A stretch of 64,000 bases of DNA from a virus (IMGVR_UViG_3300024246_000004:27446-91445); one strand, 5' to 3'; counted from the first letter of the stretch, positions 1,167-39,900 are shown. Numbers and translations: made by a program. The notes: generated by a model not told the origin, from the sequence alone.

Positions 1167-1215
1167 CTAACCGTCAGGTTCATAATCTGTCGGTGCGATC
1201 GAATACCTTGACCGC

Positions 1216-1566: not shown

Positions 1567-1572
1567 CCTAAT

Positions 1573-1645: not shown

Positions 1646-1746
1646 CGAGTGCAGGGGCAAACGCCTGCCAGCGTGCGTCTCGGGTTCGGAGTAAGGATGG
1701 CAGTCCCCTCCGGATCAGGTGGGCGCCTCAATCAAAGCCCACCACA

Positions 1747-1821
1747 TGGCCCGGTATCCCAACGGAAGTAGGAGCTCGGCTCAGACCCGAGTAATGTGTG
1801 GGTTCGAATCCCACTCGGGCT
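1747..1821 (+). tRNA. Atypical tRNA with anticodon CAG (Leu-type anticodon, short variable arm, A73)
   Basis: Acceptor GGCCCGG/TCGGGCT, conserved D-region TATCCCAACGGAAGTAGGA, anticodon loop CTCAGAC, T-arm GTGGG-TTCGAAT-CCCAC. Confidence 0.5.
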
Positions 1822-1822
1822 A

Positions 1823-1907
1823 CGCGGTTGTGCTGGAATGGGAGACAGGCTGGCTTGAGGTGCCAGTGTCCCGCAAGGGGCGTGGGGGTTCGACTCCCCT
1901 CAACCGC
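1823..1907 (+). tRNA. tRNA-Leu(GAG), long variable arm
   Basis: Acceptor GCGGTTG/CAACCGC, anticodon loop TTGAGGT, variable-arm hairpin GTCCC-GCAA-GGGGC, T-loop TTCGACT. Confidence 0.75.
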
Positions 1908-1982
1908 ACTCCACGGCTAGATTCAGAACGAAACCCAGACACCACGCGCCGTGGCCACTGTCCGCCAACGAAAGGGGAGGTA

Positions 1983-2156
1983 ATGGCTAGGGAACATAAG
2001 GCCGACCTGACCGCCATCAAGGGCGCGCTTCAGGCGAACATCAACATCAAGCTCGCTGAAGCGGAGCTGGACGAGCGCAACGACAACCCCGTCGAGGCCA
2101 GGAACACTCGGCGTATCGCCGCCGAGTGGCAGAAGGTCCACGACGGCACCACCTGA
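1983..2156 (+). CDS. Small hypothetical protein (57 aa)
   Basis: Strong SD AAAGGGGAGG 6 nt before the ATG; the upstream part of the 145-aa track ORF overlaps tRNA genes and is discounted. Confidence 0.5.
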   Translation: MAREHKADLTAIKGALQANINIKLAEAELDERNDNPVEARNTRRIAAEWQKVHDGTT

Positions 2157-2209
2157 TCGGCTCGGCGGCCACATACAGCACGAAACCCAGATACGTGCGC
2201 CGCTGTCCG

Positions 2210-2282
2210 CCCGCATAGTCCAACCGGCAGAGGCACCCGATTTAAGTCCGGGGAGTTGTGCGTTCGAATCGCACTGCGGGCA
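2210..2282 (+). tRNA. Atypical tRNA with anticodon TAA (Leu-type, short variable arm, A73)
   Basis: Acceptor GCCCGCA/TGCGGGC perfect; D-region TAGTCCAACCGGCAGAGG; anticodon loop TTTAAGT closed by an A.C mismatch; T-arm GTGCG-TTCGAAT-CGCAC. Confidence 0.45.
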
Positions 2283-2283
2283 C

Positions 2284-2356
2284 GCCCAGGTATCCCAAGG
2301 GAAGAGGAAGCGGCTTCAAGTACCGCTAGTTGTGGGTTCGAATCCCACTCTGGGCA
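2284..2356 (+). tRNA. Atypical tRNA with anticodon CAA (Leu-type, short variable arm, A73)
   Basis: Acceptor GCCCAGG/TCTGGGC; D-region TATCCCAAGGGAAGAGGA; anticodon loop TTCAAGT closed by a C.A mismatch; T-arm identical to the 1747 element. Confidence 0.5.
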
Positions 2357-2357
2357 C

Positions 2358-2430
2358 GGCCGTGTAGCTCAGCTGGTAGAGCATCCCGCTCATAACGGGA
2401 AGGTCGCAGGATCAAGACCTGCCACGGCTA
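2358..2430 (+). tRNA. tRNA-Met(CAT) elongator-type (or Ile-lysidine)
   Basis: GGCCGTG-TA-GCTC-AGCTGGTAG-AGC; anticodon loop CTCATAA; unusual T-loop ATCAAGA. Confidence 0.65.
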
Positions 2431-2436
2431 CGGTGC

Positions 2437-2480
2437 GACAGCTAGGCTTCCCCCGGGCCCCACGCCCGCCTAGCTGTCGT
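2437..2480 (+). other. Stable hairpin (11-bp stem CGACAGCTAGG / CCTAGCTGTCG)
   Basis: Perfect inverted repeat seen directly in the sequence. Confidence 0.5.
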
Positions 2481-2550
2481 GCTACGCTAACACGGCACCG
2501 CCTGGCGGCCGAGAGTAGCTCGAAACCCGTATAAGTCCCGCCGCCAGTAC

Positions 2551-2575
2551 CGGCTTGTAGCTCAATGGCTCAACG
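2551..2575 (+). pseudogene. tRNA 5-prime-half fragment (acceptor plus D-arm, GGCTTGTAGCTCAATGG...)
   Basis: Matches the 5-prime half of tRNA-Thr-like genes in this array; no anticodon arm, T-arm or acceptor 3-prime strand follows; the HNH gene starts 19 nt downstream. Confidence 0.45.
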
Positions 2576-2593
2576 TTGTGGTAGGGTTGAGCT

Positions 2594-3178
2594 GTGAAGC
2601 AGAGCTGGAATGACGATGATCTGCGCCATGCAGTAGCTCAAGCAACTTCATGGCGTCAGGTCTCTCGTATTCTCGGCCTACAAGGGACCAATCCAACTCG
2701 GCTGCGCACAAGAGCTCAAGTTGCTGGCGTAGATTTCTCGCACTTCAAGGGGAGCAGATCCTTTTCCGATGAAGAGCTTCGGGATGCGGTCGCTGAGTCA
2801 GCAACTCCTTTCGAGGTGCAAAAGCGCCTAGGGAGGGGTGCGTGGCATTCAATTCAGAGGCGCATAAGGGAGTTGGGGCTAGAGTTTGGCCTGCCAGCAC
2901 CTGACTCGCGTCGAAAAAGTCTCAACCTAGTACTGACCCCCAACTCGACCTACCAGTCTGACAGGACACGCAAACGCCTCGTCGAAGCCGGACTAAAGGA
3001 GGAGAGGTGCGAGGGATGCGGCCTGGCGGAATGGCTAAATGGCCCGATACCCCTTCATCTCGACCACATTAATGGCGTGCACAATGATAACCGCCTAGAG
3101 AACCTTCGTATCCTCTGCCCCAACTGCCACTCCCTCACTCCCACGTGGGGAAACCGCAAGCGACCTTTGGCCTCCTAG
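2594..3178 (+). CDS. HNH homing endonuclease (paralog of 5554..6066)
   Basis: C-terminal CEGCG...HLDHINGVHNDNRLENLRILCPNCHSLT; about 50% identical to the 5554 ORF over its length. Confidence 0.75.
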   Translation: MKQSWNDDDLRHAVAQATSWRQVSRILGLQGTNPTRLRTRAQVAGVDFSHFKGSRSFSDEELRDAVAESATPFEVQKRLGRGAWHSIQRRIRELGLEFGLPAPDSRRKSLNLVLTPNSTYQSDRTRKRLVEAGLKEERCEGCGLAEWLNGPIPLHLDHINGVHNDNRLENLRILCPNCHSLTPTWGNRKRPLAS

Positions 3179-3240
3179 CTCAGTGGTAGAGCGCTTCTTT
3201 CACACAGAAGAGGTCCCGAGTCCGATTCTCGGGGAGGCTA
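3169..3240 (+). tRNA. tRNA-Val(CAC)
   Basis: Acceptor GGCCTCC/GGAGGCT; anticodon arm CTTCT-TTCACAC-AGAAG; T-arm CCGAG-TCCGATT-CTCGG; its 5-prime end overlaps the HNH stop codon TAG. Confidence 0.7.
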
Positions 3241-3348
3241 CGCGTCCGCCAACCCTAGAGAACTGCTGCAATGTGGCAGGGCACGGGAGAAGCAGCTCCC
3301 ACGCCCAGGCGGATGCCCCTGGGGCACCTAGGAAGGCCGCTGGGGTTA

Positions 3349-3423
3349 CAGCCTATGGCGCAGCTTGGCAGCGCGCCTGGTCGGGGACCAGGAGGTCGCC
3401 AGTTCAAATCTGGCTAGGCTGAC
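3349..3423 (+). tRNA. tRNA-Pro(GGG)
   Basis: C1-G72 acceptor CAGCCTA/TAGGCTG with A73 (bacterial Pro signature); D-arm GCGC-AGCTTGGCA-GCGC; anticodon loop TCGGGGA; T-arm GCCAG-TTCAAAT-CTGGC. Confidence 0.65.
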
Positions 3424-3476
3424 GTTGTGGTGGTCACGTAGCGTACGAGACCTATACCAAGCACACCGCCACGCAC

Positions 3477-3548
3477 CGCCTCGTAGCTCAGCGGCAGAGC
3501 GCCCGCCCGACACGCGGGAGGCCGGACGATCAACACGTCCCGAGGCGA
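3477..3548 (+). tRNA. tRNA-Val(GAC)
   Basis: CGCCTCG-TA-GCTC-AGCGGCA-GAGC; anticodon arm CCCGC-CCGACAC-GCGGG; unusual T-loop ATCAACA. Confidence 0.6.
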
Positions 3549-3583
3549 CGATCATCGGCAGGATGCGACAGGAGACGGACACC

Positions 3584-3760
3584 ATGGATACGGCAGCAGC
3601 CGAAACGAAGACCGCGCTTTCCACGGGGATCCTGGATGCGCGCGCCGTGCCGCTCGGGCGCCTTGCCCAGGAGGGCAACGGCTCGGAGGGAATGTCCCGC
3701 GTGCTGCCCGGCTTCGACGCCAAGAGGGTCGCGGTCGCGTCGTTCCAGTCCTCGGTCTAG
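3584..3760 (+). CDS. FxsA-like small protein with FXSXX-COOH C-terminus (...ASFQSSV)
   Basis: SD AGGAGA 7 nt upstream; C-terminal F-Q-S-S-V; paralogous to the next ORF. Confidence 0.55.
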   Translation: MDTAAAETKTALSTGILDARAVPLGRLAQEGNGSEGMSRVLPGFDAKRVAVASFQSSV

Positions 3761-3792
3761 CGGTCGCGATCCTCGACAGGAAGCAGTGGGAG

Positions 3793-3960
3793 ATGGACAG
3801 CACGGACGTGCTAGTGTCTGAGGTTCCCGACCTCAGGATGATGAGCCTCGCCGATCTTGCGCGGCTGCATTCGGGGAGGGCTCTGCAGAAGGTCGTCGCG
3901 GAGGCCCTGGAGCCCTCCGCCCGGCAGGTCTCCGTGGCGGCGTTCAACTCGTCCATCTAG
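3793..3960 (+). CDS. FxsA-like small protein with FXSXX-COOH C-terminus (...AAFNSSI)
   Basis: 55 aa; leader-like segment LPDLRMMSLADLARL...ALQKVVAEALE followed by AAFNSSI-COOH, the hallmark of the actinobacterial FXSXX-COOH (FxsA) family. Confidence 0.6.
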   Translation: MDSTDVLVSEVPDLRMMSLADLARLHSGRALQKVVAEALEPSARQVSVAAFNSSI

Positions 3961-3966
3961 TTTCAC

Positions 3967-4040
3967 GCGCCCGTAGCTCAGCGGATAGAGCGCCGCCGTC
4001 CTAAGGCGGGCCGTCGCTGGTTCGAATCCAGCCGGGCGCA
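3967..4040 (+). tRNA. tRNA-Arg(CCT)
   Basis: GCGCCCG-TA-GCTC-AGCGGATAG-AGC; anticodon loop GTCCTAA; T-arm GCTGG-TTCGAAT-CCAGC. Confidence 0.8.
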
Positions 4041-4159
4041 CCGTCTCTGGCCATTGTGGATGCGAAAACCTTGCGGTACCCGCCGGGGGCGTGATACGTT
4101 AATCGAGTCGGCAGCCGAAAAGGGTGCGGAAACCCGGATCTCATCGCCGCCGACGCACG

Positions 4160-4345
4160 ACCGATCGGATCCGCTCCAAGGTTGGACGTCTTCCTGTCTC
4201 GGCCCTTGGCGACCGACCGGCGTACCACAAGCACCACCCGGCGATCGTGGCTCGAACTCGAAGTGAGTCCCGAGTCGCCGGTAGCACGGATCGGCGGCTT
4301 CAAGGTTGGGTTTCTGGACTTCTTAGCCCTTGGCCGTCGATCATA
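4160..4345 (+). repeat. Two ~60-nt direct repeats (about 4160-4215 and 4285-4345) sharing GATCGG...CAAGGTTGG...GCCCTTGGC
   Basis: Seen by eye; each copy contains the CCAAGG/CCTTGG inverted pair; no cloverleaf could be folded. Confidence 0.4.
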
Positions 4346-4417
4346 GGTGGGTAGCTCAACTGGTAGAGCGCAGGTCTCCAAAACCTGTCGTTGGGGGTTC
4401 AAGTCCCTCCCCACCTG
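4345..4417 (+). tRNA. tRNA-Trp(CCA)
   Basis: AGGTGGG-TA-GCTC-AACTGGTAG-AGC; anticodon loop CTCCAAA; T-loop TTCAAGT. Confidence 0.8.
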
Positions 4418-4419
4418 CG

Positions 4420-4491
4420 GTGAGTATGGCCGAGCGGCTTAGGCACCGGTTTGTGGAACCGGGCAGACGGGTTCGACCCCCGTTACTCACA
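4420..4491 (+). tRNA. tRNA-His(GTG)
   Basis: Perfect acceptor GTGAGTA/TACTCAC; anticodon arm CCGGT-TTGTGGA-ACCGG; T-arm ACGGG-TTCGACC-CCCGT; a G at position -1. Confidence 0.65.
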
Positions 4492-4631
4492 CGTTCCGTA
4501 GCGTCAGCCTGGTGAGCGGCTACGGAGTTCGGCGAGCGGCACTGACCAACGTCCCAGTACCCAGAAATGGGGATAGAAACAGTCGCCGAATACACGAACG
4601 ACCTGCCCCGACGCGCACGCGGGCAGGCGGT

Positions 4632-4661
4632 CCGCCGAGCCCGATCACTCGGCGGACCGGG
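4632..4661 (+). other. Strong hairpin (11-bp stem GGTCCGCCGAG / CTCGGCGGACC)
   Basis: Perfect inverted repeat in a non-coding spacer of the tRNA array. Confidence 0.45.
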
Positions 4662-4735
4662 AAGTCTGGCGACGGAGTTGGGCCAGACCGGGCGGGCTGA
4701 CGTGGGTTAGGCCTTCCACAAAGTAAACTGAATAC

Positions 4736-4808
4736 GCGCCTGTAGCTCAGCGGAGAGAGCGCCTCACTACGGATGAGGAGGCCGGGGGTTCGAATCCCTC
4801 CAGGCGCA
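4736..4808 (+). tRNA. tRNA-Arg(ACG)
   Basis: GCGCCTG-TA-GCTC-AGCGGAGAG-AGC; anticodon arm CCTCA-CTACGGA-TGAGG; T-loop TTCGAAT. Confidence 0.85.
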
Positions 4809-4809
4809 C

Positions 4810-5545
4810 GAGCGATCGCCGTAGCTCAAAGGCCCGAGAGGACGCCTTATCGGGAGAGCCCCGCTGTACCCCATTAAGGGTGAACGACGGGAGATCCGGC
4901 CGAACCGGCGACGATCCTCCGGGTGTGCTGTACGCCCGGCCAAAAGAGGGACCATGGCCCTCGGCAGCGGCAAGGAGCGAAGGAAGCCTCATCGGGAGGT
5001 GTCTTGACGGCTGGTGATGTGAATGACGAGCCGTCACGTGGGCGAGGGAGCAGATCACACTGTAGCCCGAGCCCTGGAGGTTCGACCCCTCCCCTTTGCA
5101 CGGCAGGTGGCCGCCAGAACCCTTACCTGGCGGACGGAGAGGCCAACCCGGGACAGTGGTACGCGTAGCGGAATGCTCCCCGAGTAAGATCTCCGTACTC
5201 GTAGTAGCGGGCCCTGCGCTTTGACGGGTGGTCGGTTGAGGCAACCACACCGGAGCGTTTGGGGTCGCTCCCCCTCCGGAGATACTGGTTCGAATCCAGT
5301 CCCGTCAGCGCTCCGGCGATTGCAAGCGCCGGTGATGGACACGCGGGTGCGCACTCGTGTGGAATGGTGTACGTGGAGACGGTACGGATAGGGCCCCCTG
5401 AAGGGCCTGATTCCGGGACGGGCGGGTTCGAGTCCCGCAACACCGCGAACGACAGCCAAACAGGGCCCGGTATCCAACATGGGTGCGCTGTCGGTCATGG
5501 CGCCTTAGCTCAGTTGGAAGAGTCTGTCGGACCTGAGCTATATTG
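4810..5545 (+). ncRNA. Zone of tRNA-like elements and fragments that do not fold into standard cloverleaves
   Basis: Three canonical T-arm motifs (GGAGG-TTCGACC-CCTCC near 5085; ACTGG-TTCGAAT-CCAGT near 5295 with a perfect 7-bp acceptor TGACGGG/CCCGTCA spanning 5223-5313; GGCGGG-TTCGAGT-CCCGC near 5445), plus 5-prime fragments GGCCCGGTATCCAAC (5466) and GGCGCCTTAGCTCAGTTGGAAGAG (5499-5535). Confidence 0.35.
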
Positions 5546-5553
5546 TTTCCCGT

Positions 5554-6066
5554 ATGGCTCGATACAGCAAGAATCGGTGCAGATGGACGGATGAACAACT
5601 CAGGGAAGCGGTCGCCAGCAGTCAATCGATCCGCCAGGTCATCGGGATACTCGGCCTGTCGGTGACGGCGGCCGGGAACTGGGGTACGGTCAAAAAGCAT
5701 GTGAGTCGGCTCGGGCTGGACACCTCCCACTGGACGGGGCAATCCTGGGTGGGAACCCGCGAAAACCACCCGGCACGACTCCCTCTTGAACAGATATTGG
5801 TACCAGGTTCAACGTACAGAACTTCTGCGCTTCGAGACCGCCTCATCGGAGCTGGACTCAAAGAATGGCGATGCGAAAGGTGCTTGCGGATCGACTGGGA
5901 GGGGGATCGCATTCCCCTTGAGGTGGATCATGCGAATGGAGTGCCGGACGACCATAGGATCGAGAATCTGCGCTTGCTCTGCCCCAATTGCCATGCGTTA
6001 ACGCCGACATGGCGCGGGCGCAAGAACGCTAGATCATACCACGGCAACGTAGCTGAGAAGGATTAG
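5554..6066 (+). CDS. HNH homing endonuclease (paralog of 2594..3178)
   Basis: C-terminal CERCL...EVDHANGVPDDHRIENLRLLCPNCHALT; preceded directly by a tRNA 5-prime fragment. Confidence 0.75.
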   Translation: MARYSKNRCRWTDEQLREAVASSQSIRQVIGILGLSVTAAGNWGTVKKHVSRLGLDTSHWTGQSWVGTRENHPARLPLEQILVPGSTYRTSALRDRLIGAGLKEWRCERCLRIDWEGDRIPLEVDHANGVPDDHRIENLRLLCPNCHALTPTWRGRKNARSYHGNVAEKD

Positions 6067-6248
6067 CGAGGCTCTGAAAAAGCCTAGAGGCTGGATCGTT
6101 ACCAGTCGTTGCCACGCGGTACAAGCCTGCAAGAAGGCGAGTGCGCAGCTTCGTGTCATAGGCTGCCGAAGACCGATGGCCCTATCGGATGCCATGCTGG
6201 TCGGCTAAGCGAAGCCGCGTCCCCGGCTCGTACCCGGGGGCCGTACCT

Positions 6249-6339
6249 GGAGAGGTCGCCTAGTCCGGTCTATGGCGCCGACCTGCTAAGTCGGTGGGTT
6301 CCGCAAGGGGCCTCATGGGTTCGAATCCCATCCTCTCCG
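6249..6339 (+). tRNA. tRNA-Ser(GCT), long variable arm
   Basis: GGAGAGG/CCTCTCC; anticodon arm CCGAC-CTGCTAA-GTCGG; T-arm ATGGG-TTCGAAT-CCCAT. Confidence 0.8.
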
Positions 6340-6419
6340 CGCAAAACAGTTGGACAGCCCAGCGTGGATGAGATACGTTAGTTCTCGCAGGGGTTCGAGC
6401 CAGGGATAAGCTAGGCGGG

Positions 6420-6466
6420 CCTGTAAAGCCCTACCTTGGAGGTTCGAATCCTCCCGGGCCCACCAA
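6420..6466 (+). pseudogene. tRNA-like minihelix (acceptor GGGCCTG/CGGGCCC plus T-arm GGAGG-TTCGAAT-CCTCC) lacking D and anticodon arms
   Basis: Only 13 nt lie between the acceptor 5-prime strand and the T-arm. Confidence 0.35.
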
Positions 6467-6488
6467 ACCGAGCGAAAGGAGAGTACTG

Positions 6489-6671
6489 ATGGCCAGCAGA
6501 GAGACCAAGGAGCTCCTCGCGGCACTGGACCGGCACCGGGAGTACACGGCGGAGCAGGAACGGATCGCGCACGACAACCTGTTCCGCGTCACGGACCCCG
6601 TCGAGGGAGCCGTCTCGGTGAAGGACACCGGCAAGATCAAGAGGATCCTCAAGCGAACGCGGAACGGCTAG
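6489..6671 (+). CDS. Small hypothetical protein (60 aa)
   Basis: SD GAAAGGAGAG 7 nt upstream of the ATG. Confidence 0.55.
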   Translation: MASRETKELLAALDRHREYTAEQERIAHDNLFRVTDPVEGAVSVKDTGKIKRILKRTRNG

Positions 6672-6717
6672 CACTACCCGTAGTACGCTAATTGACAACT
6701 CCAGAGTGACGCGAAAT

Positions 6718-6788
6718 GCGGATGTAGCTCAATGGTAGAGCGCTACCTTGCCATGGTAGATACGCGAGTTCGATTCTCGTCATCCGCT
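6718..6788 (+). tRNA. tRNA-Gly(GCC)
   Basis: GCGGATG-TA-GCTC-AATGGTAG-AGC; anticodon loop TTGCCAT; U73. Confidence 0.85.
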
Positions 6789-6888
6789 CAACCCGGCGGC
6801 CAGTCTCAGCTCGAAACCCAGAGACCCAACGTCGCCGGACGAGGTGCCCAAGTACCCTCCGAGACTCAAACTCCTCGCGGCACCGCAT

Positions 6889-6963
6889 GTCCCCGTCGTC
6901 TAGCGGTTCCAGGACATCACCCTCTCAAGGTGAAAATCGCCGGTTCGAATCCGGTCGGGGATA
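6889..6963 (+). tRNA. tRNA-Glu(CTC)
   Basis: Glu-type D-arm GTCTAGCGGTTCCAGGAC; anticodon arm TCACC-CTCTCAA-GGTGA. Confidence 0.8.
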
Positions 6964-7017
6964 CTCTCCGGCAGCCAGAATGAGCAGGAAACCCAAGTAC
7001 AGTTCGCTGCCGGACAT

Positions 7018-7091
7018 GGCCCGTTCGTCTAGCGGCCGAGGATCCCACCCCTTCAAGGTGCGAGGCACGGGTTCGAATCCCGTACGGGCTA
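7018..7091 (+). tRNA. tRNA-Glu(TTC)
   Basis: Glu-type D-arm GTCTAGCGGCCGAGGAT; anticodon loop CCTTCAA; T-arm ACGGG-TTCGAAT-CCCGT. Confidence 0.75.
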
Positions 7092-7154
7092 CGGCGTCGC
7101 GGCCACGGCGACAATCGCGGTAGTGGGCGAGCAAGATGCCCGCACAGTGGCAGT

Positions 7155-7228
7155 GCTGTAGTGGCTCAATATGGCGGAGCGTCGCGCTTCCAACGCGAAG
7201 GTCGCAGGTTCGAACCCTGTCTACAGCG
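7155..7228 (+). tRNA. tRNA-Gly(TCC)
   Basis: GCTGTAG/CTACAGC; anticodon arm TCGCG-CTTCCAA-CGCGA. Confidence 0.8.
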
Positions 7229-7229
7229 C

Positions 7230-7301
7230 CGGAATGTGGGGTAATGGTCGCCCGCCTGCCTTGGGAGCAGGTCCACGCAGGTTCGATTCCTGTCATTCCG
7301 A
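7230..7301 (+). tRNA. tRNA-Pro(TGG)
   Basis: C1-G72 acceptor CGGAATG/CATTCCG with A73; anticodon arm CCTGC-CTTGGGA-GCAGG. Confidence 0.75.
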
Positions 7302-7416
7302 CGATCCAAGGGCAAGGATGAGAAGCGGGAACCCAAGGGTAGCGGACATGGTGAATGTATCTAGCCGAGCCGCTGAACTTTCCGTCGGCCAGATACGCCG
7401 GGGGAGCCGCAATCAA

Positions 7417-7490
<74 letters not shown>

Positions 7491-7500
7491 CGTACACTAT

Positions 7501-7573
7501 GCACCTGTGGCCGAGAGGCGAGGCGCTTCCCTGCAAAGGAAGAATGACCCCGGTTCAAATCCGGGCAGGTGCT
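7501..7573 (+). tRNA. tRNA-Cys(GCA)
   Basis: Perfect acceptor GCACCTG/CAGGTGC with U73; anticodon arm CTTCC-CTGCAAA-GGAAG. Confidence 0.8.
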
Positions 7574-7628
7574 CGATTCGGTGGCCATATACGGTACGAG
7601 ATCCACGCCAAGGCTCGCCACCGGACAC

Positions 7629-7699
7629 GCCCTTGTAGCTCAATGGCAGAGCACTCGTTTCGTAATCGAGGGACCGGCGTCCGATTCGTCGCAGGGGCT
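7629..7699 (+). tRNA. tRNA-Thr(CGT)
   Basis: GCCCTTG-TA-GCTC-AATGGCA-GAGC; anticodon loop TTCGTAA; T-loop TCCGATT. Confidence 0.65.
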
Positions 7700-7753
7700 C
7701 AGATCGGCAGCAATGTAGCTTTCGAAGACCATAACCGGCTCGCTGTCGGTCAT

Positions 7754-7826
7754 GGGGGTGTAGCTCAGGGGTTAGAGCGCTTCCCTGATAAGGAAGAGGT
7801 CGGAGGTTCAAATCCTCCCATCCCCA
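7754..7826 (+). tRNA. tRNA-Ile(GAT)
   Basis: GGGGGTG-TA-GCTC-AGGGGTTAG-AGC; anticodon arm CTTCC-CTGATAA-GGAAG. Confidence 0.85.
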
Positions 7827-7830
7827 CTTA

Positions 7831-7905
7831 GGGCCCGTAGCTCAGTCAGGTTAGAGCAGCTTCCTTTTAAGTAGCGGGTCGCAGGTTCGAATCCTGTCGG
7901 GCCCA
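7831..7905 (+). tRNA. tRNA-Lys(TTT)
   Basis: GGGCCCG/CGGGCCC; anticodon loop CTTTTAA; T-arm GCAGG-TTCGAAT-CCTGT. Confidence 0.75.
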
Positions 7906-7922
7906 CCCGCTAGACTCTTGCT

Positions 7923-8363
7923 GTGATCACCGGTAAGAGCTGTGGCAAGTGCGGTGAAGTGAAGAACCTTGAAGAATTCTCAAGGAACTCGCGTAGAAAA
8001 GATGGCCGCCAAACATGGTGCAAGAAATGTGCCCATGCACGCAGAAATGAATGGGCCAAAGAGAATCGCGATAAATGTCGGACTTACCGCCTCTACGACG
8101 CCCATGGAATCCGTATCGCCGACAAGCAGCGCATGTATGAAGAGCAAGGCGGCCTCTGTGCGGCCTGCCAGAAGAAGGAAGCTGTCGTAGTCGATCACGA
8201 CCATTCCTGCTGCCCCAACAACCGGGGCGGCTGTGGGAAGTGCGTGCGAGCGCTCCTTTGTAACCGCTGCAACCTCCTCGCGGGGTTCTTTGAGACCGAC
8301 CCGGAGGCTTGCGAGAGCGTCCAGGCGTATCTTTTGCGGTACAGTAAGACCAACCCTCCGTAA
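7923..8363 (+). CDS. Endonuclease VII-like (T4 gp49-type) nuclease
   Basis: N-terminal CGKCG Zn motif, central VVDHDHSCCP, then CNRCNLLAG: the signature of the Endonuclease_7 family. Confidence 0.7.
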   Translation: MITGKSCGKCGEVKNLEEFSRNSRRKDGRQTWCKKCAHARRNEWAKENRDKCRTYRLYDAHGIRIADKQRMYEEQGGLCAACQKKEAVVVDHDHSCCPNNRGGCGKCVRALLCNRCNLLAGFFETDPEACESVQAYLLRYSKTNPP

Positions 8364-8426
8364 CTCAGCGGCCAGAGTTGCGCCCTCTTAAGGCGAAGGT
8401 CGCCGGTTCGAATCCGGCCGGGGGGA
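8354..8426 (+). tRNA. tRNA-Lys(CTT)
   Basis: Acceptor CCCTCCG/CGGGGGG; D-arm ACTC-AGCGGCCA-GAGT; anticodon loop CTCTTAA; T-arm GCCGG-TTCGAAT-CCGGC; its 5-prime end overlaps the last codons of the endonuclease VII gene. Confidence 0.6.
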
Positions 8427-8529
8427 CGAGGCGTGCGGCACGCCGCGCGGAGATTAGGGCTAGCCCCCCAGGGGAGCCCCTCCAAAAAGCCAACTCCCTA
8501 TACTAGTTCGGGACGAGGCAGCCGCATAA

Positions 8530-8602
8530 GGGCCCGTAGCTCAGCTGGTAGAGCACTCGCCTCGCACGCGAGAGGTCCGGGGTTCGACTCCCCGCCGGTC
8601 CA
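8530..8602 (+). tRNA. tRNA-Ala(CGC)
   Basis: G3.U70 wobble in the acceptor (Ala identity element); anticodon arm CTCGC-CTCGCAC-GCGAG; T-loop TTCGACT. Confidence 0.75.
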
Positions 8603-8669
8603 CGATGCGTAGCGGCGCGCAACGGGCTAAGTAACCCGGAAGCCATGCTAGCCACTGGCAGCCGCGTAA

Positions 8670-8740
8670 GGGGTTGTAGCTCAACGGTGAGCACCTCGTT
8701 TGCATCGAGGCGGACGCGGGTTCGAATCCCGTCAACTCCA
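8670..8740 (+). tRNA. tRNA-Ala(TGC)
   Basis: G3.U70; anticodon arm CCTCG-TTTGCAT-CGAGG. Confidence 0.8.
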
Positions 8741-8876
8741 CTGGGCGGCATGCGGCATGCCGTGGGGAGCGCAGCTAGGAACTGCGCCGTCTGAATGAAG
8801 ACCACTCCCCGGAAGACGAAGGTAGGCAACCGCAAGGGTCCTAGCCTGAAGTGGGGAATCTGGAGTCAGCCGCATT

Positions 8877-8952
8877 GGGCCTATAGCTCAGCCCGGCAGA
8901 GCGCCCGCTCGGCAGGCGGGAGGTTTCGTCGGTTCGAATCCGACTAGGTCCA
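8877..8952 (+). tRNA. tRNA-Ala(GGC)
   Basis: G3.U70; anticodon arm CCCGC-TCGGCAG-GCGGG; T-arm GTCGG-TTCGAAT-CCGAC. Confidence 0.65.
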
Positions 8953-9160
8953 CTACCGCCGCGTGGTCGGCGGGGAGCGACGCATGTCGGAGATTGCGCG
9001 CTCGCAGGACAAGGCTTACCCGTGTTGGATTCCGACTAGGCACGGGAGGTAGCGTGTCCATCCGCACCGCCCCGCAACGGGCTGCCGGACCGGGTTGTGC
9101 CGGTTAGGCTGCAATACCGAGTGAGTCGCCCGGCACTCGTTAATCCCTACCGGCGAACCT

Positions 9161-9248
9161 GGAGAGGTCGGCCCCGCTGGCGGAGGCACTGTCCTGGAAT
9201 GGCAGCGGCCGTTGATTCGGTTCGTGGGTTCGATTCCCACTCTCTCCG
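9161..9248 (+). tRNA. tRNA-Ser(GGA), long variable arm
   Basis: GGAGAGG/TCTCTCC; anticodon arm CTGTC-CTGGAAT-GGCAG; T-loop TTCGATT. Confidence 0.7.
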
Positions 9249-9547
9249 CGAACTCGGCGACCAGTCTTGGAACGCAGCTCACTCTGCCTTCGTTGCCGAG
9301 TCTCACTGTCCGACAGCCAAGCGGTTCCGCGCACCATGTGCCGGGCGCTGTCGGGCTCCATGCGGGCCCTGGGGAGGTAACCTGACGGTCCACGGTGCAC
9401 CAGCGACCGTCAGCAGCTCCGTCCACTCGGAGCGCCCGCTCGATCGACAGCCATAGTGGCCTCGCACCCCGCGCTCCCTACGCTGTCGAGCTCAACCCGG
9501 TGGCCATAGCGAGAACCCTCCCACAGGACACTCCCGCCGCCGGTCGT

Positions 9548-9621
9548 GGTCCTGTAGAGCAGCTGGAGTGCTCGCCACCCTGTCAAGGTGGAGGTCGCGG
9601 GTTCAAGTCCCGTCAGGACCG
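9548..9621 (+). tRNA. tRNA-Asp(GTC)
   Basis: GGTCCTG/CAGGACC with G73; anticodon arm CCACC-CTGTCAA-GGTGG; T-loop TTCAAGT. Confidence 0.85.
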
Positions 9622-9625
9622 CTAA

Positions 9626-9698
9626 GGCGACGTAGCTCAGCGGATAGAGCGCTTCCCTCCGAAGGAAGAGGCCGTGGGTTCAAATCCCACCGTCGCCA
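9626..9698 (+). tRNA. tRNA-Arg(CCG)
   Basis: GGCGACG/CGTCGCC; anticodon arm CTTCC-CTCCGAA-GGAAG. Confidence 0.8.
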
Positions 9699-9699
9699 C

Positions 9700-9782
9700 G
9701 GAAGGTCCGACACTGGTGCGTCAAGCGTCTTCGAAAGGCGTGGCGGTGAAAGCCGTTAGCGGTTCGAGTCCGCTACCTTCCG
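9700..9782 (+). tRNA. tRNA-Ser(CGA), long variable arm
   Basis: GGAAGGT/ACCTTCC; anticodon loop TTCGAAA; T-arm AGCGG-TTCGAGT-CCGCT. Confidence 0.65.
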
Positions 9783-9834
9783 CTACCAGCAGCCGAGGTC
9801 AACGCGTATCCCAAAATCGTTCTGCTGCTGGTTT

Positions 9835-9918
9835 GGAGAGTTGCCGGAACGGTAACGGCGCCGCCTTGAAAGCGGACGGCAGGGAAACCTGGAGCAGGTT
9901 CGACCCCTGCACTCTCCG
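9835..9918 (+). tRNA. tRNA-Ser(TGA), long variable arm
   Basis: GGAGAGT/ACTCTCC; anticodon loop CTTGAAA; variable-arm hairpin CAGG-GAAA-CCTG; T-loop TTCGACC. Confidence 0.7.
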
Positions 9919-9923
9919 CGCGG

Positions 9924-9994
9924 TCCCCGCTAGTTCAATGGCAGAACGCTCGACTGTTAATCGAGAAGTACCTGGATCGATACCAGGGCGGGGA
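9924..9994 (+). tRNA. tRNA-Asn(GTT)
   Basis: TCCCCGC/GCGGGGA; anticodon arm CTCGA-CTGTTAA-TCGAG; unusual T-loop ATCGATA. Confidence 0.65.
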
Positions 9995-10012
9995 GCATGA
10001 AAGGGGGCGGTT

Positions 10013-10450: not shown

Positions 10451-10519
10451 TACGTTAAGCTTTCGGTGCCCAGAGGACTAACGTCACCCGCTGAACACGC
10501 GGCACCGCGAGGAGCTTCC

Positions 10520-10849: not shown

Positions 10850-11325
10850 TGCCGCAGGACGAGCAGGAGCGCCGCAAACTGGAGCTGGGCAACGCCGCCC
10901 TCCAGGCCCTCGCCGCCCTTCAACCGGTGCGCGACGGCTCGGCCCACTGGCTCGTCGCGGTGCGCTGCCTGAGCGAACTGGGGGACGCGGCGGCGCGCTT
11001 CATGGCCGACTACTACGACGCCATGACCGCCGAGGAGATGGACGTGGAGCTCACCGAGAGCGGGTCGGTACAGATCGAGGCGCCGCGCGGCGAGCCGAAG
11101 ATCGGTTTCTGGTGCGGCTTCACGCGGGCGGAGATGAGAGAGATCAAGGAGTGGGACAACAAGGCCTATACCGGCGACGTCGTGCATGACGCGGCGCTGC
11201 GATGGATCCGCGAGGCTGAGGGTATGCGAATTGCGCTGGCCAAACTCAAAGGTTCCGCGCCGACGCGCGCGGAGATCCTCACGGGCTTGATGCTGGACGA
11301 GACCCCTCCAGGTGCGGTGGAGTAA
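10846..11325 (+). CDS. Hypothetical protein (160 aa)
   Basis: ATGATG start coupled to the upstream stop; codon usage matches its neighbours. Confidence 0.5.
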   Translation: MMPQDEQERRKLELGNAALQALAALQPVRDGSAHWLVAVRCLSELGDAAARFMADYYDAMTAEEMDVELTESGSVQIEAPRGEPKIGFWCGFTRAEMREIKEWDNKAYTGDVVHDAALRWIREAEGMRIALAKLKGSAPTRAEILTGLMLDETPPGAVE

Positions 11326-11843
11326 TGCCGTCTTGGGCCCGCTACCGCGTATTCGCGTGGGATGAATTCCTGCGCCTGTGGTGCGAGGACTGCTACACCG
11401 AGGGCAACGAGCTGGGCTTTTGGTCGGAAGTCGAGCCGGTTCCCGTCAGCGAGATGATCGGCTTGATCGTCCAGCACGAGCTCGCCGTCCACCGGGACCC
11501 TCCTTCGTCGCCGACCAAACTGGTGCGAGACGGCGTGCCTGACGCGATCAGGGCCAACGGCCAGATTCCGATCACCCGTACCGCCGACACCGAGGAGTAC
11601 GTCAAGCTCCTGCGTGAGAAGCTGCTGGAGGAAGTCGGGGAGTTTCTGGACGCCGGGCCGGAGGGCGAGGCGGAGGAGCTGGCTGACGTACTTGAGGTGG
11701 TCTTCGCGCTTGCGCGGCTCACAGGCTTGGGTGCCGTCCTGGCGGCGCGCACTGAGAAGCGCAAGCGCCTTGGTACGTTCATGGACCGCGTGGTCTGGGA
11801 GGGCAACTTCGAAACCGCACGGAAGGAGGGTTCTGATGCTTGA
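11325..11843 (+). CDS. MazG-like nucleotide pyrophosphohydrolase domain protein
   Basis: C-terminal ...EEVGEFLDA...EELADVLEVVFALARLTGL...KRKRLG; start couples to the upstream stop (TAATG). Confidence 0.6.
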   Translation: MPSWARYRVFAWDEFLRLWCEDCYTEGNELGFWSEVEPVPVSEMIGLIVQHELAVHRDPPSSPTKLVRDGVPDAIRANGQIPITRTADTEEYVKLLREKLLEEVGEFLDAGPEGEAEELADVLEVVFALARLTGLGAVLAARTEKRKRLGTFMDRVVWEGNFETARKEGSDA

Positions 11844-11934
11844 GGGTTTGCAGGCGCTGTTCGACATGCTTGTGGAACTGTGCGCGAGCTGCCACGGATT
11901 CTGACGGTCACCCTCCTTCCCGGGCAGCTCCTTA

Positions 11935-12100
11935 AAGCTCGTCGGCCTAAGTCGTTCAAGGCTCCTTCGCGCGCGTTCGCCCATTTCATTCGAGGCTCCT
12001 TCAGTAATTCCTTGATTCAATTCAGTCGGGGCTCCTTCAGGCTCCTTCAGAATGTGTGCGTATCATTTGATTGAGGCTCCTTCTGGGCTCCTTCATGCAA
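11935..12100. repeat. Cluster of about 8 copies of GGCTCCTTC (minus-strand GAAGGAGCC) with irregular spacing
   Basis: Copies near 11957, 11991, 12032, 12041, 12075 and 12086, plus degenerate copies at 11915 and 11935; sits at the convergent junction of the rightward and leftward gene blocks. Confidence 0.6.
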
Positions 12101-12574
12101 TGTGCCCATATTATTCGCTCCGGCCCCCGTCCCTCCCGGCCGCCCCTCCATGATCGTCACGGGCTGTCGGCCGGTGCCGTCCCACGCCCATCCATGTCCG
12201 ATCATCAACCCGTTGACACGTAGGATGCTCGACGCCGCAGCAGCATGGCTGTGCGTCAACGGCAGTACATCCAGGCGGCGCGGTTCAGTGTCGTACATCC
12301 ACGCGCTCGGCCGGTAGCCCACCTGCGCCACGCGGTCTATGTAACCGAGTGGATGCGCGGTGCGTGATTCGAGCATGAGGAACCAGCGGGCCTGCCCGCC
12401 GCGACGCGTCTTGCGTACCGTGAGCCGTGGACCGTGCTCGGCGCACAAGTGCGCCACGGCAGCGTCATAGGCGCCGGAGAGCGAGCGGGAGCGTCCCCCG
12501 TGGGGGCGCGGAGCGGAGCATTTCCAGAACCACAGGACCCCGAACGGGTAGACGCGTGCGCGTTCGCGCGGCAT
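12047..12574 (-). CDS. Hypothetical protein; the C-terminus runs into the repeat cluster, so extent is uncertain
   Basis: Long open frame in the same orientation as the downstream block; no motif recognised. Confidence 0.3.
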   Translation of the reverse strand: MPRERARVYPFGVLWFWKCSAPRPHGGRSRSLSGAYDAAVAHLCAEHGPRLTVRKTRRGGQARWFLMLESRTAHPLGYIDRVAQVGYRPSAWMYDTEPRRLDVLPLTHSHAAAASSILRVNGLMIGHGWAWDGTGRQPVTIMEGRPGGTGAGANNMGTLHEGAQKEPQSNDTHTF

Positions 12575-12690
12575 GAGTTCGATCGGCGTGGGACTCCCCT
12601 TCCGTTGGACGGTTGGTTGACGGCTCGCACAGCGCCACAGAGCGCTGTTGACGGCCGGTTGGGCATCACCTTACCGGGGGACGCCCGGTA

Positions 12691-12716
12691 GCGCCGTAGG
12701 GACGTCCCTACGGCGC
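12691..12716. promoter_or_regulatory. 26-bp perfect palindrome GCGCCGTAGGGACGTCCCTACGGCGC next to a TTGACTAACGTAGCG promoter-like element
   Basis: Self-complementarity checked by hand. Confidence 0.55.
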
Positions 12717-12720
12717 TACG

Positions 12721-12954
12721 TTAGTCAAGCCTCCGGGCGAGCAGGCGCACGAACGCACGCAACTCGCCTGCTTCACGGCACCAAGTGGCATGCCGGAACA
12801 ACCCGGCCTTGCACCATGGTCCTGTATCGAACACGCATATAGCGCACATCTCGGTGTGCTCGACATAGTGTCTGCGAGACTCGGCGAGATGCGCCTTGAG
12901 AGCGGCGAGTTGCTCTAATGCTTGCTGACGCGTCATGCGCGGGGGTACGGCCAT
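12721..12954 (-). CDS. Hypothetical small protein (77 aa)
   Basis: ORF in operon orientation. Confidence 0.45.
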   Translation of the reverse strand: MAVPPRMTRQQALEQLAALKAHLAESRRHYVEHTEMCAICVFDTGPWCKAGLFRHATWCREAGELRAFVRLLARRLD

Positions 12955-13035
12955 ACACTCCCCTTCCGTTCGGTTCGGGTCCGGCGGACATGCCGCAACG
13001 CGCTCCGTGGAGCGCGCCGCAGCAAACCCGCCGGA

Positions 13036-21348: not shown

Positions 21349-21744
21349 TTAGATGTAGCGGGCGTGGGACGGGCGGCGGGCGGGCATCCGCAGGCGCGGC
21401 ATGCTCGGGCGGCTCGCCACCGGCAGGCGGCGGTACCAGCGCACGCCCAGGAACAGGTACACGGGCACGGAGAAGTAGAACGCGGGGAGGATCAGGAACA
21501 GCAGCGAGACTTTCAGCCGCTTCGCTGCGACCGCGTGGCGCTGATTGAACGTCGGGCGCGGCGGGGCCACGGCGAACAGTCCGCGCCCGCCGACCGCGTT
21601 CACCTGGTACCCGGCGGAGGCGAGCAGCATGTGCGCCTGCCCGCTGACCACCGTGTTGGGGAACGCGAGCACGTATCCGCCGTTGGGGGACAGGCTCGCC
21701 TGGTGTGCGATGCCGAGTTCCGCGAGGATCCTCATCTGGGCCAT
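21349..21744 (-). CDS. Membrane protein
   Basis: SD GGAAGGCAACGATC-ATG; hydrophobic segments. Confidence 0.5.
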   Translation of the reverse strand: MAQMRILAELGIAHQASLSPNGGYVLAFPNTVVSGQAHMLLASAGYQVNAVGGRGLFAVAPPRPTFNQRHAVAAKRLKVSLLFLILPAFYFSVPVYLFLGVRWYRRLPVASRPSMPRLRMPARRPSHARYI

Positions 21745-39892: not shown

Positions 39893-39900
39893 GATCATCC

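What the first reader, a model, noticed from the sequence alone, without database searches (positions are those of the whole stretch)
11935..12100. GGCTCCTTC repeat cluster (8 copies) at the convergent junction of the rightward and leftward blocks
Eight copies of GGCTCCTTC (or GAAGGAGCC on the other strand) lie within about 170 bp with irregular spacing. They sit exactly where the rightward MazG operon and the leftward 12-23 kb block converge. On the minus strand each copy is a perfect Shine-Dalgarno core (AAGGAG). Possibilities: iterons for a DNA-binding protein (origin or partition site), a terminator/anti-terminator platform, or an RNA element that sequesters ribosomes or 16S-like sequence.
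Basis: seen in the sequence. Interest (0 to 1): 0.6.

Follow-up and report, generated by a model that had tools for sequence, protein, structure and literature searches.

The report
Oriented GGCTCCTTC repeat array, phage junction
A short DNA word (GGCTCCTTC) is repeated six to eight times, always on the same strand, where two converging gene blocks meet in an uncultivated tRNA-rich actinophage; related phages keep the word and its spacing, so it is a real signal, but what reads it is unknown.

Summary
The repeat cluster is real, but there are six exact copies of GGCTCCTTC, not eight. All six lie on the + strand at 11960-12094. Two 2-mismatch copies lie at 11911 and 11926. There is no other exact copy in the 64 kb (0.62 expected). 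The array fills the AT-richer gap between a short rightward operon (paralog-MazG gene) and a leftward 175-aa gene.

Five related uncultivated phage contigs carry the same 9-mer at the same junction. The spacing is conserved (pairs 10-11 bp apart, then 34-36 or 46 bp) although the spacers have diverged. Motif columns are 83-100% identical between genomes, against 40-66% for the rest of the array. All 32 copies in six genomes lie on the sense strand of the rightward operon. In relatives, single copies sit 14-20 nt upstream of the start codons of small metal-binding paralog genes, and a few lie inside coding sequence in all three frames.

I found no RNA structure, Rfam family, hairpin terminator, host-type promoter, ParB, Rep or integrase.

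My best reading (confidence 0.35) is a set of oriented binding sites for a sequence-specific factor, stoperator-like. Single sites would act as operators, and the cluster as a roadblock that ends the operon. The rivals are an anti-SD/SD RNA decoy, a Rho loading site, a duplication relic, origin or partition iterons, and a packaging site.

The parts
11896..11919 (+). Conserved left-boundary block GGATTCTGACGGTCACCCTCCTTC, ending in the degenerate copy CCCTCCTTC (11911-11919)
   Evidence: The block CCGATTCCGACGGTCACC(C)TCC precedes the array in all six genomes, whether or not it is coding. The copy has 2 mismatches.
11926..11934 (+). Degenerate copy AGCTCCTTA (2 mismatches)
11960..11968 (+). Exact copy 1 (single)
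   Evidence: It is homologous to the GGCTCCTTA copy of L073, which has the same GCGCGCGTT spacer.
11994..12002 (+). Exact copy 2 (single); the position is shared by all four aligned genomes
12030..12048 (+). Exact copies 3 and 4, a pair 10 bp apart (GGCTCCTTCaGGCTCCTTC); the pair is shared by all four aligned genomes
12075..12094 (+). Exact copies 5 and 6, a pair 11 bp apart (GGCTCCTTCtgGGCTCCTTC). In L073 and L074 the first member of this pair is degenerate; in L064 it is absent.
11905..12110 (+). The whole array region. It is non-coding on the rightward side and AT-richer. It contains the most pyrimidine-rich 200 nt on the + strand of the window. It is built of 46-bp (pair) and 34-35-bp (single) tandem units.
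11325..11843 (+). Last large gene of the rightward operon. An N-terminal 65-aa metal-binding paralog domain (C-x2-C ... HExxxH) is fused to a MazG-like domain. A variant copy CCCTCCTTC lies at 11498-11506, at the domain junction.
11836..11904 (+). Tiny 22-codon ORF with a GGAAGGAGG ribosome-binding site; last rightward reading frame before the array
12047..12574 (-). Leftward 175-aa gene (fast-evolving, C-x4-C ... H-x4-H motif in relatives). Its non-conserved tail reads through copies 5 and 6, and its stop codon TGA overlaps copy 4.
10479..10484 (+). -10-like TAACGT (ggacTAACGTcac) of the phage's recurrent promoter type, upstream of the rightward operon
12718..12723 (-). -10-like TAACGT (cttgacTAACGTag) upstream of the 175-aa gene, followed by a palindrome

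Best explanation
The array is a set of oriented recognition sites, about 11-12 bp each (Y-S-R-GGCTCCTTC-W), for one sequence-specific factor. The factor is probably phage-encoded, and it reads the sites in the direction of the rightward operon. A single site placed 14-20 nt upstream of a start codon would act as an operator for that gene; in relatives these genes are the small metal-binding paralogs. The cluster of 6-8 sites after the last stop codon would load many copies of the factor. That would end or insulate the rightward transcription unit where it meets the convergent 175-aa gene, standing in for the missing hairpin terminator. I lean towards action on DNA, as a polar roadblock like the stoperators of cluster A mycobacteriophages. 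What is shown: the sites exist, they are conserved under selection, their orientation is strict, their spacing is conserved, and they lie close to start codons. What is inferred: that a protein binds them, which protein it is, whether it acts on DNA or RNA, and the terminating or insulating effect.
For: (1) The motif is non-random and confined to this locus: 6 exact copies against 0.62 expected, and none elsewhere in 64 kb. (2) It is conserved in every relative that covers the locus: L064/L025, L073, L074, L320 and L321. Motif columns are 83-100% identical between genomes, against 40-66% for the other array columns; L073 against L064 gives 35/35 against 44%. (3) Spacing is conserved (10-11 bp, then 34-36 or 46 bp) while spacer sequences differ between the window/L073 type and the L064/L074 type. 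The 10-11 bp pair spacing equals one DNA helical turn. (4) All 32 copies in six genomes lie on the sense strand of the rightward operon, and flanking positions are also biased: T-C-S-R before the motif and W-G after it. (5) All 6 free-standing paralog genes have a copy 15-20 nt upstream of their ATG. MazG in L320 has one at 14 nt. The intervening sequences have diverged. (6) Copies inside coding sequence use all three reading frames (A-P-S, G-S-F, G-L-L), so selection acts on nucleotides and not on a peptide. (7) The junction lacks a hairpin terminator and a sigma-70-type promoter. Both flanking units carry the phage's own TAACGT-type promoters, so both are expected to be transcribed into the array. 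(8) The array, the 175-aa family and the paralog family occur together in this subclade. All three are absent from the more distant relatives examined: L065-L070, L318, L319 and L322.
Confidence: 0.35

Rival explanations
1. RNA-level Shine-Dalgarno interplay. Either the rightward transcript carries 6-8 exposed CUCCUU(C) anti-SD-like seeds that pair with the SD sequences of mRNAs, or the leftward transcript's 3' tail carries 6-8 strong SD cores (GAAGGAG) that hold 30S subunits. Either would modulate translation in a phage that also brings its own tRNAs and ribosomal proteins.
For: Each copy is a perfect AAGGAG on the minus strand, and 7 of the window's 15 GAAGGAG heptamers are here. Both strands fold no better than shuffles (z +0.55 and +1.14), so the motifs would be single-stranded. 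Strand bias is strict, at 32/32. The first, degenerate copy GGTCACCCTCCTTC resembles the 16S 3' end as I recall it, GGATCACCTCCTTTC (own knowledge). The phage encodes S9, L13, an RF-1 domain protein, Thg1, RNA ligases and 36 tRNAs in one array, plus two isolated calls.
Against: The invariant flanking bases (GG at the 5' end, and the final C) are not explained by SD:anti-SD pairing. No conserved start codon or mini-ORF follows the minus-strand SD cores in relatives. Local folds of seven gene-proximal copies show no consistent motif:SD hairpin (z -1.2 to +1.1). There is no Rfam match. The phage's own genes use ordinary GGAG-type SDs and would be hit too.
Confidence: 0.15
2. Rho loading (rut) platform. 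The untranslated, C-rich, G-poor, unstructured RNA after the last rightward stop codon recruits Rho and terminates the rightward operon before it runs antisense into the leftward genes.
For: The array contains the most pyrimidine-rich 200-nt stretch on the + strand in the 64 kb (0.66, against a median of 0.51). The C/G ratio is 1.2-2.1 and reaches the top 1-5% of windows at 12071-12131. There is no stable structure and no intrinsic terminator. Copies inside ORFs would be masked by translation.
Against: Rho has loose sequence specificity, so it cannot explain 35 of 35 identical motif columns while spacers are 44% identical. It also cannot explain the fixed 14-20 nt distance to start codons. C/G inside the core of the array (11991-12051) is only 1.0-1.2.
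Confidence: 0.12
3. By-product of local duplication and recombination. The units are relics of the 5' junction of the small paralog gene (motif + about 15-20 nt + AT-rich start region), multiplied by slippage or unequal crossing-over. They may serve as short homologies that drive gain and loss of the small genes, in the manner of the PeSL cassettes of T4-type phages.
For: Array units are homologous to gene-proximal units. Compare GGCTCCTTCAGAAT...ATG in L073 and L320 with GGCTCCTTCAGAATGTGTGCGTATCATT in the window. The gene content between MazG and the array differs in every genome: a fusion in the window, two paralogs in L073, one with an in-frame stop in L074, and no MazG in L064. In L321 the copy at 586 lies between a duplicated TTCCGACGGTCACC block. 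Two short contigs break at the array (L075, L321).
Against: Neutral relics would decay at the same rate as the spacers, yet the 9-mers are kept intact across genomes whose spacers are only 40-66% identical. Copy number and spacing of the core (single, pair, single or pair) are conserved in four genomes.
Confidence: 0.12
4. Iterons of a replication origin, or a plasmid-like partition (centromere) site bound by an initiator or a ParB/ParR-type protein.
For: Direct repeats lie in a low-GC intergenic stretch. Pairs are one helical turn apart. The cumulative GC skew of the window peaks at 11888. A fast-evolving small protein gene with its own promoter lies next to the array.
Against: No Rep, DnaA-like, helicase-loader, ParA, ParB or ParR domain appears in the window census. 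ORF 308-847 has no ParB hit. The skew maximum corresponds to a terminus rather than an origin in the usual convention, and it is confounded by the G-rich tRNA array to the left. Copies inside neighbouring ORFs and in front of start codons are not a feature of origins.
Confidence: 0.08
5. Packaging or genome-end signal: a terminase small-subunit binding array, or a boundary of terminal repeats, comparable to the hexamer repeats of the P1 pac site or the short-repeat arrays next to the T7 terminal repeat. The 'convergent junction' would then be the joined genome ends.
For: The array is a cluster of short, one-orientation repeats spanning about 180 bp. Transcription units point towards it from both sides. 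Two short metagenome contigs end at it.
Against: The large terminase gene is 12 kb away, at 23958-25379. Three contigs of 119-121 kb and the window's own contig read straight through the junction. There is no second array in the window. Contigs may also break at repeats for purely technical reasons.
Confidence: 0.05

Closest known systems
Stoperators of cluster A mycobacteriophages (L5 repressor gp71 sites; named from my own knowledge and mentioned in PMC3203893)
   Same: Both are short asymmetric sites in an actinobacteriophage. Both are present in one orientation relative to transcription and lie in or at very short intergenic spaces close to gene starts.
   Different: Stoperators are 13 bp, number about 24-36, and are dispersed over both genome arms of temperate phages with a known repressor. 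Here the sites are confined to about 0.7 kb, most are stacked in one array at an operon end, no repressor is known, and the sequence is unrelated.
Start-associated sequences (SAS, GGGATAGGAGCCC) of cluster K mycobacteriophages (PMC3203893)
   Same: Both are asymmetric repeats in one orientation, tied to start codons of non-structural genes. Both are conserved although the downstream genes differ, and the function of both is unknown. The reverse complement of the present motif (GAAGGAGCC) shares AGGAGCC with the SAS.
   Different: The SAS lies 3-7 bp upstream of the start on the sense strand and contains the SD itself. Here the sense strand carries the complement (CTCCTT), 14-20 nt upstream, with a separate SD in between. 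SAS copies number 11-19, are dispersed, and are never arrayed.
Iteron and centromere arrays bound by small dimeric proteins (R1 parC/ParR 11-bp repeats, pSM19035 omega heptads, P1 incA; own knowledge)
   Same: Both consist of several direct repeats of a short word. Some neighbours are one helical turn apart. Both lie next to a small, fast-evolving gene.
   Different: Those arrays are contiguous or regularly phased and are paired with recognisable ParM/ParA or Rep genes. Here units are 46/35 bp, no such genes were found, and extra copies precede start codons.
Multi-site sponge RNAs such as CsrB/RsmZ, and C/U-rich anti-SD seed sRNAs of Gram-positive bacteria (own knowledge)
   Same: Both show irregularly spaced repeats of an SD-like (minus strand) or anti-SD-like (plus strand) word in a poorly structured stretch of about 200 nt.
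   Different: There is no hairpin-loop presentation, no promoter or terminator defining an sRNA, no Rfam match, and, to my knowledge, no CsrA homologue in actinobacteria. The conserved word is 9-12 nt rather than 4-5 nt.
PeSL regulatory cassettes of T4-type phages (promoter-early plus stem-loop repeats flanking small variable ORFs; own knowledge)
   Same: Both are repeated short regulatory units that flank small, variable, fast-turnover genes and could mediate their shuffling.
   Different: PeSLs contain a recognisable early promoter and a stem-loop. Neither is present here.

Membership tests
Replication-origin iterons | Several direct repeats next to an AT-rich unwinding region | tested here: met
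   There are 6 exact and 2 degenerate direct repeats in a 47-53% GC stretch of a 65.8% GC genome.
Replication-origin iterons | A cognate initiator (Rep or DnaA-type) or replication genes at or near the site | tested here: not met
   The Pfam census of 76 ORFs shows no Rep, DnaA, helicase or primase domain. The neighbouring genes have no family assignment.
Replication-origin iterons | Replication starts at the site | not testable with these tools
   This needs marker-frequency or 2D-gel data. The GC-skew maximum at 11888 is ambiguous.
parS / ParB or parC / ParR partition site | A ParA/ParM and ParB/ParR gene pair in the genome | tested here: not met
   No such domains were found. ORF 308-847 has no Pfam hit at E<=0.05. 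Only about half of the genome is in the window.
parS / ParB or parC / ParR partition site | Palindromic parS, or contiguous repeats phased with the helix | tested here: not met
   The sites are asymmetric and all direct. Spacing is 10-11 bp, then 34-36 or 46 bp.
Stoperator-type oriented operator (cluster A mycobacteriophages) | Asymmetric site in one orientation relative to transcription | tested here: met
   All 32 copies lie on the sense strand of the rightward operon in six genomes.
Stoperator-type oriented operator (cluster A mycobacteriophages) | Located in short intergenic spaces near gene starts, dispersed through the genome | tested here: inconclusive
   Of 13 dispersed copies, 7-8 lie 14-20 nt before a start codon. 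All copies, however, lie within about 0.7 kb, and most are in one array.
Stoperator-type oriented operator (cluster A mycobacteriophages) | Bound by the phage repressor, which blocks elongation | not testable with these tools
   No repressor was identified. This needs EMSA, ChIP or a reporter assay.
Start-associated sequence (cluster K) | 13-bp GGGATAGGAGCCC on the sense strand, 3-7 bp upstream of the start codon | tested here: not met
   The sense strand reads GGCTCCTTC, 14-20 nt upstream, with a separate SD. SAS features were taken from PMC3203893.
Intrinsic (hairpin) terminator | G+C-rich stem-loop followed by a U tract | tested here: not met
   No sites were found in 11000-13000. The folds are no more stable than shuffles.
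Rho utilisation site | Untranslated, C-rich, G-poor, unstructured RNA of about 80 nt or more | tested here: met
   Pyrimidine fraction is 0.62-0.66, the maximum of the window. C/G is 1.41 over 206 nt. Fold z-score is +0.55.
Rho utilisation site | Rho-dependent 3' ends downstream | not testable with these tools
   This needs Term-seq with and without bicyclomycin.
CsrB/RsmZ-type sponge RNA | A discrete sRNA gene with its own promoter and terminator, with GGA motifs in hairpin loops | tested here: not met
   There is no promoter or terminator, no stable hairpins and no Rfam hit.
attP with integrase arm-type sites | An integrase gene, and a core site flanked by arm sites in both arms | tested here: not met
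   No integrase domain was found in the window. All sites are in one orientation, with no recognisable core.
Coding tandem repeat | Period a multiple of 3 inside an ORF | tested here: not met
   Spacings of 34, 36, 10, 35 and 11 put the copies in different frames. This contrasts with about 55 unrelated IMG/VR hits whose periods are multiples of 3.

The most novel reading that the evidence does not exclude
The array is a translation-directed RNA decoy, used by a phage that brings its own tRNAs and ribosomal proteins S9 and L13. One transcript would display 6-8 anti-SD-like seeds and the convergent transcript 6-8 strong SD cores. Together they would titrate SD-led initiation (host mRNAs or 30S subunits). 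The single copies, 14-20 nt upstream of start codons, would mark the genes that escape or depend on this control. This would be a new kind of viral take-over of translation initiation.
Probability: 0.1. Interest if true: 0.85.

Novelty: new variant of a known kind. Interest (0 to 1): 0.5.

Why it matters
Short oriented repeats such as stoperators and start-associated sequences are among the few cis-regulatory codes known in actinobacteriophages, and the function of the SAS is still unknown. This is a third, unrelated word with a new layout: single copies placed in front of start codons, plus a stacked array at a convergent operon end. It occurs in an uncultivated lineage of about 120 kb whose large terminase is at most 43% identical to that of any cultured phage, and which carries an unusually rich translation toolkit. 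If a protein reads the word, it defines a new operator/roadblock pair and gives a handle on two orphan metal-binding protein families. If the word acts as RNA against the Shine-Dalgarno interaction, it would be a new viral strategy. Either way the element is small, sharply defined and easy to test with a probe of 9-12 nt.

Tried and rejected
- **Close DNA relatives in GenBank phages:** none found by megablast or blastn.
- **Three-copy pattern scan of IMG/VR:** it gave 63 loci, of which only L025 is related. The rest are in-frame coding repeats or 10/11-bp microsatellites.
- **Two-copy pattern scans:** scans of the metagenome, genome and viral collections gave more than 240 loci, none related to the window. 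The Streptomyces hits are chance or simple tandem repeats; L263 matched only the rplM-rpsI genes.
- **Protein-guided metagenome scan with the 175-aa family:** nothing found.
- **Homologues of the 175-aa protein:** the word-indexed search found only the protein itself.
- **More distant relatives (42-57% identity in the 391-aa neighbouring protein, or the 46% GC paralog context):** no array. These have ordinary hairpins or unrelated repeats.
- **Rfam:** no family matched.
- **RNA structure on either strand:** none.
- **Motif:SD hairpin for translational coupling:** not supported.
- **Sigma-70-type promoter inside the units:** rejected. The scan found none. In L064 the AT-rich hexamer overlaps the real start codon. 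The phage's true promoters have a different, well-defined form, TTGACG-17-TAACGT.
- **Hidden 11-12 bp periodic degenerate copies in the spacers:** none.
- **Homology between the two flanking protein families:** hhalign E = 0.25 over 19 columns, not significant.
- **Structure of the 175-aa protein:** prediction failed, pLDDT 33.
- **BoxA/Nus-factor site:** the actinobacterial boxA as I recall it (TGTTCTTTGA) does not match the array within 2 mismatches.
- **Literature search for the 9-mer:** only primer sequences turned up.
- **CRISPR, attP, coding repeat:** excluded by anatomy.

Full report
**What is there.** The window is a 65.8% GC phage sequence. It has an array of 36 tRNA genes on the + strand at 1.1-10 kb, and ARAGORN also calls two isolated tRNAs on the minus strand. 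It carries a T4-type large terminase at 23958-25379 and genes for ribosomal proteins S9 and L13, an RF-1 domain protein, Thg1 and two RNA ligases. It has no DNA relative among GenBank phages, and its terminase is at most 43% identical to that of any cultured phage. The same sequence is found in a 91-kb metagenome contig and in an independent Logan contig.

**The observation.** Exact GGCTCCTTC occurs six times, all on the + strand, at 11960, 11994, 12030, 12040, 12075 and 12086. It occurs nowhere else in the 64 kb on either strand; 0.62 copies are expected, and no shuffle reaches 6. Two copies with two mismatches lie just to the left: CCCTCCTTC at 11911 and AGCTCCTTA at 11926. One-mismatch variants are not enriched elsewhere. 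The spacings are 34, 36, 10, 35 and 11 bp, which puts the copies in different reading frames, so this is not a coding repeat. The stretch 11905-12110 is one of the two lowest-GC spots of the window. On the + strand it contains the most pyrimidine-rich 200 nt of the whole window.

**Setting.** The phage has a clear promoter type of its own: TTGACG, about 17 nt, then (ac)TAACGT(atc). It recurs more than 20 times. One such -10 element lies at 10479-10484 (+), ahead of the short rightward operon that ends with the paralog-MazG gene (11325-11843) and a 22-codon ORF (to 11904). Another lies at 12723-12718 (-), ahead of the leftward 175-aa gene (12574-12047). Two short transcription units therefore run into the array from opposite sides. 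There is no hairpin terminator, no sigma-70-type promoter, no stable RNA fold on either strand and no Rfam family in or around it.

**Relatives.** I used the neighbouring 391-aa protein (phrog_2319) and the 65-aa N-terminal domain of ORF 11325-11843 as handles. With them I recovered five related uncultivated contigs:
- L064/L025: IMG/VR, 119 kb, 74-75% aa identity
- L073: JGI, 121 kb, 86%
- L074: Logan, 81%
- L320
- L321

. Every one that covers the locus has the same 9-mer on the same strand.

The aligned arrays share a core of single, pair, then single-or-pair. Start-to-start distances are 10-11 bp, then 34-36 or 46 bp. This amounts to 3-4 tandem units of 46 bp (pair) or about 35 bp (single), with degenerate copies at the operon-proximal end. 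Spacer sequences have diverged into two types. Motif columns are 83-100% identical between genomes, against 40-66% for the remaining array columns. This is strong evidence for selection on the word itself. More distant relatives lack both the array and the two flanking protein families. These relatives are 42-57% identical in the 391-aa protein, or belong to the 46% GC lineage.

**New anatomy.** In the relatives, extra copies lie outside the array but within about 0.7 kb of it, and always on the sense strand of the rightward operon. In total, 32 of 32 copies in six genomes are on that strand. All six free-standing genes of the small paralog family have a copy 15-20 nt upstream of their ATG, with a Shine-Dalgarno sequence in between. 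MazG of L320 has one at 14 nt. The intervening bases are not conserved. Often the copy lies in the last codons of the upstream ORF. Copies inside coding sequence occur in all three frames (A-P-S, G-S-F, G-L-L), so the constraint is on nucleotides. The consensus extends to about 12 nt: T-C-S-R-GGCTCCTTC-W-G. Array units resemble the gene-proximal units (GGCTCCTTCAGAAT ... AT-rich start region), and the number of small genes between MazG and the array differs in every genome. A further block, CCGATTCCGACGGTCACC(C)TCC, precedes the array in all genomes, whether or not it is translated.

**Interpretation.** The data require a sequence-specific, orientation-dependent reader. My best-supported model (confidence 0.35) is an oriented protein-binding site, used singly as an operator just upstream of the ribosome-binding region of a few genes. 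Stacked at the end of the operon, it would act as a multi-site roadblock or insulator where a hairpin terminator is missing. This is stoperator-like in logic (PMC3203893 contrasts stoperators with SAS). I cannot decide between action on DNA and action on RNA. The one-turn pair spacing favours DNA. The strict sense orientation, the position 5' of the SD and the unstructured pyrimidine-rich transcript fit RNA equally well.

The rivals are:
- An SD/anti-SD RNA decoy (0.15). This is attractive given the phage's translation genes, but the invariant flanking bases are unexplained and no motif:SD hairpin is seen.
- A Rho loading site (0.12). The composition fits, but Rho cannot explain exact 9-mers.
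- A duplication or recombination relic (0.12). Unit homology and gene flux fit, but conservation argues for function.
- Origin or partition iterons (0.08). No partner genes were found.
- A packaging or genome-end signal (0.05). The terminase is 12 kb away, and long contigs read through the junction.

**Verdict.** It belongs to no described family. It works most like the short oriented repeats of other actinophages, but with a new word and a new array-plus-singles layout. The mechanism remains open, and a 12-nt probe would test it directly.

Noticed in passing
window 18429, 20654, 21800, 22777, 23481, 15541, 12725 (minus strand); 26640-54308 (11 sites on the plus strand); 967, 4093, 6372, 10449, 20632 (minus strand): A recurrent phage promoter-like motif: TTGACGCATCAC, about 10 nt, then (g)acTAACGTATC(a). 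That is, a -35 TTGACG, a 17-nt spacer and a -10 TAACGT. Many copies have only the extended -10. It is unrelated to GGCTCCTTC.
   Followed up: partly
window 39443-39898 (-) and 39901-40428 (-): Phage-encoded ribosomal proteins S9 and L13 (Pfam E about 1e-44), adjacent as in the bacterial rplM-rpsI operon. They are 76% nucleotide-identical to a Streptomyces sp. contig (L263), which also hints at the host.
   Followed up: partly
window 1093-9996 (+); also 21554-21655 (-) and 31849-31921 (-): An array of 36 tRNA genes on one strand, plus two isolated tRNA calls on the minus strand. One of these is a 102-nt 'tRNA-Gly' that may be an artefact. Several minus-strand TAACGT promoter-like sites lie inside the tRNA array.
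   Followed up: no
window 46390-47553 (-), 49599-50576 (-), 52263-53390 (-), and unlocated ORFs: An RNA repair and translation toolkit: a T4 Rnl1-type ligase, Thg1 (tRNA-His guanylyltransferase), a second RNA ligase with a PHA02142 OB fold, and an RlaP and an RF-1 domain protein somewhere in the window.
   Followed up: partly
window about 12690-12716: A near-perfect 26-bp palindrome, GCGCCGTAGGGACGTCCCTACGGCGC, immediately downstream of the -10 element of the 175-aa gene promoter. It could be an operator or a leader hairpin.
   Followed up: no
window 11896-11919; L073, L074, L064 and L321 at the homologous place: The block CCGATTCCGACGGTCACC(C)TCC is conserved at the DNA level in all six genomes, although it is translated in different frames or not at all. 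It is duplicated in L321 and partly repeated in L073 and L074. In L064 and L074 it forms the palindrome GGAGGGTGACCCTCC.
   Followed up: partly
window 11325-11519 (+) and relatives: A rare family of small domains (C-x2-C/H ... HExxxH, beta-beta-beta-alpha, pLDDT 87.6). It is present as 1-2 free-standing genes in relatives but fused to MazG in the window. One library hit (P0123, 994 aa) contains 14 repeats of its C-terminal half.
   Followed up: partly
window 12047-12110 (-): The 175-aa ORF reads through two motif copies (..HEGAQKEPQ..) and stops at a TGA that overlaps copy 4. In L064 and L073 the homologous ORF stops at a TGA overlapping the first motif it meets, and in L074 at a TAG just before it.
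   Followed up: partly
L067 13100-13330 and 13990-14300: A distant relative (128-kb IMG/VR contig) has dense clusters of CGAGACGAGA / GTCTCG repeats in both orientations around small genes downstream of the 391-aa homologue. This is a different word in a roughly comparable place.
   Followed up: no
window about 26091 and about 22241: Two minor local clusters of short words: CCACTGG five times within 300 bp, and GGCGACCA four times within 300 bp.
   Followed up: no
window 11888: The cumulative GC skew of the window has its maximum exactly at the junction, rising over 0-12 kb and falling over most of 12-64 kb whatever the gene orientation. The G-rich tRNA array confounds this.
   Followed up: partly
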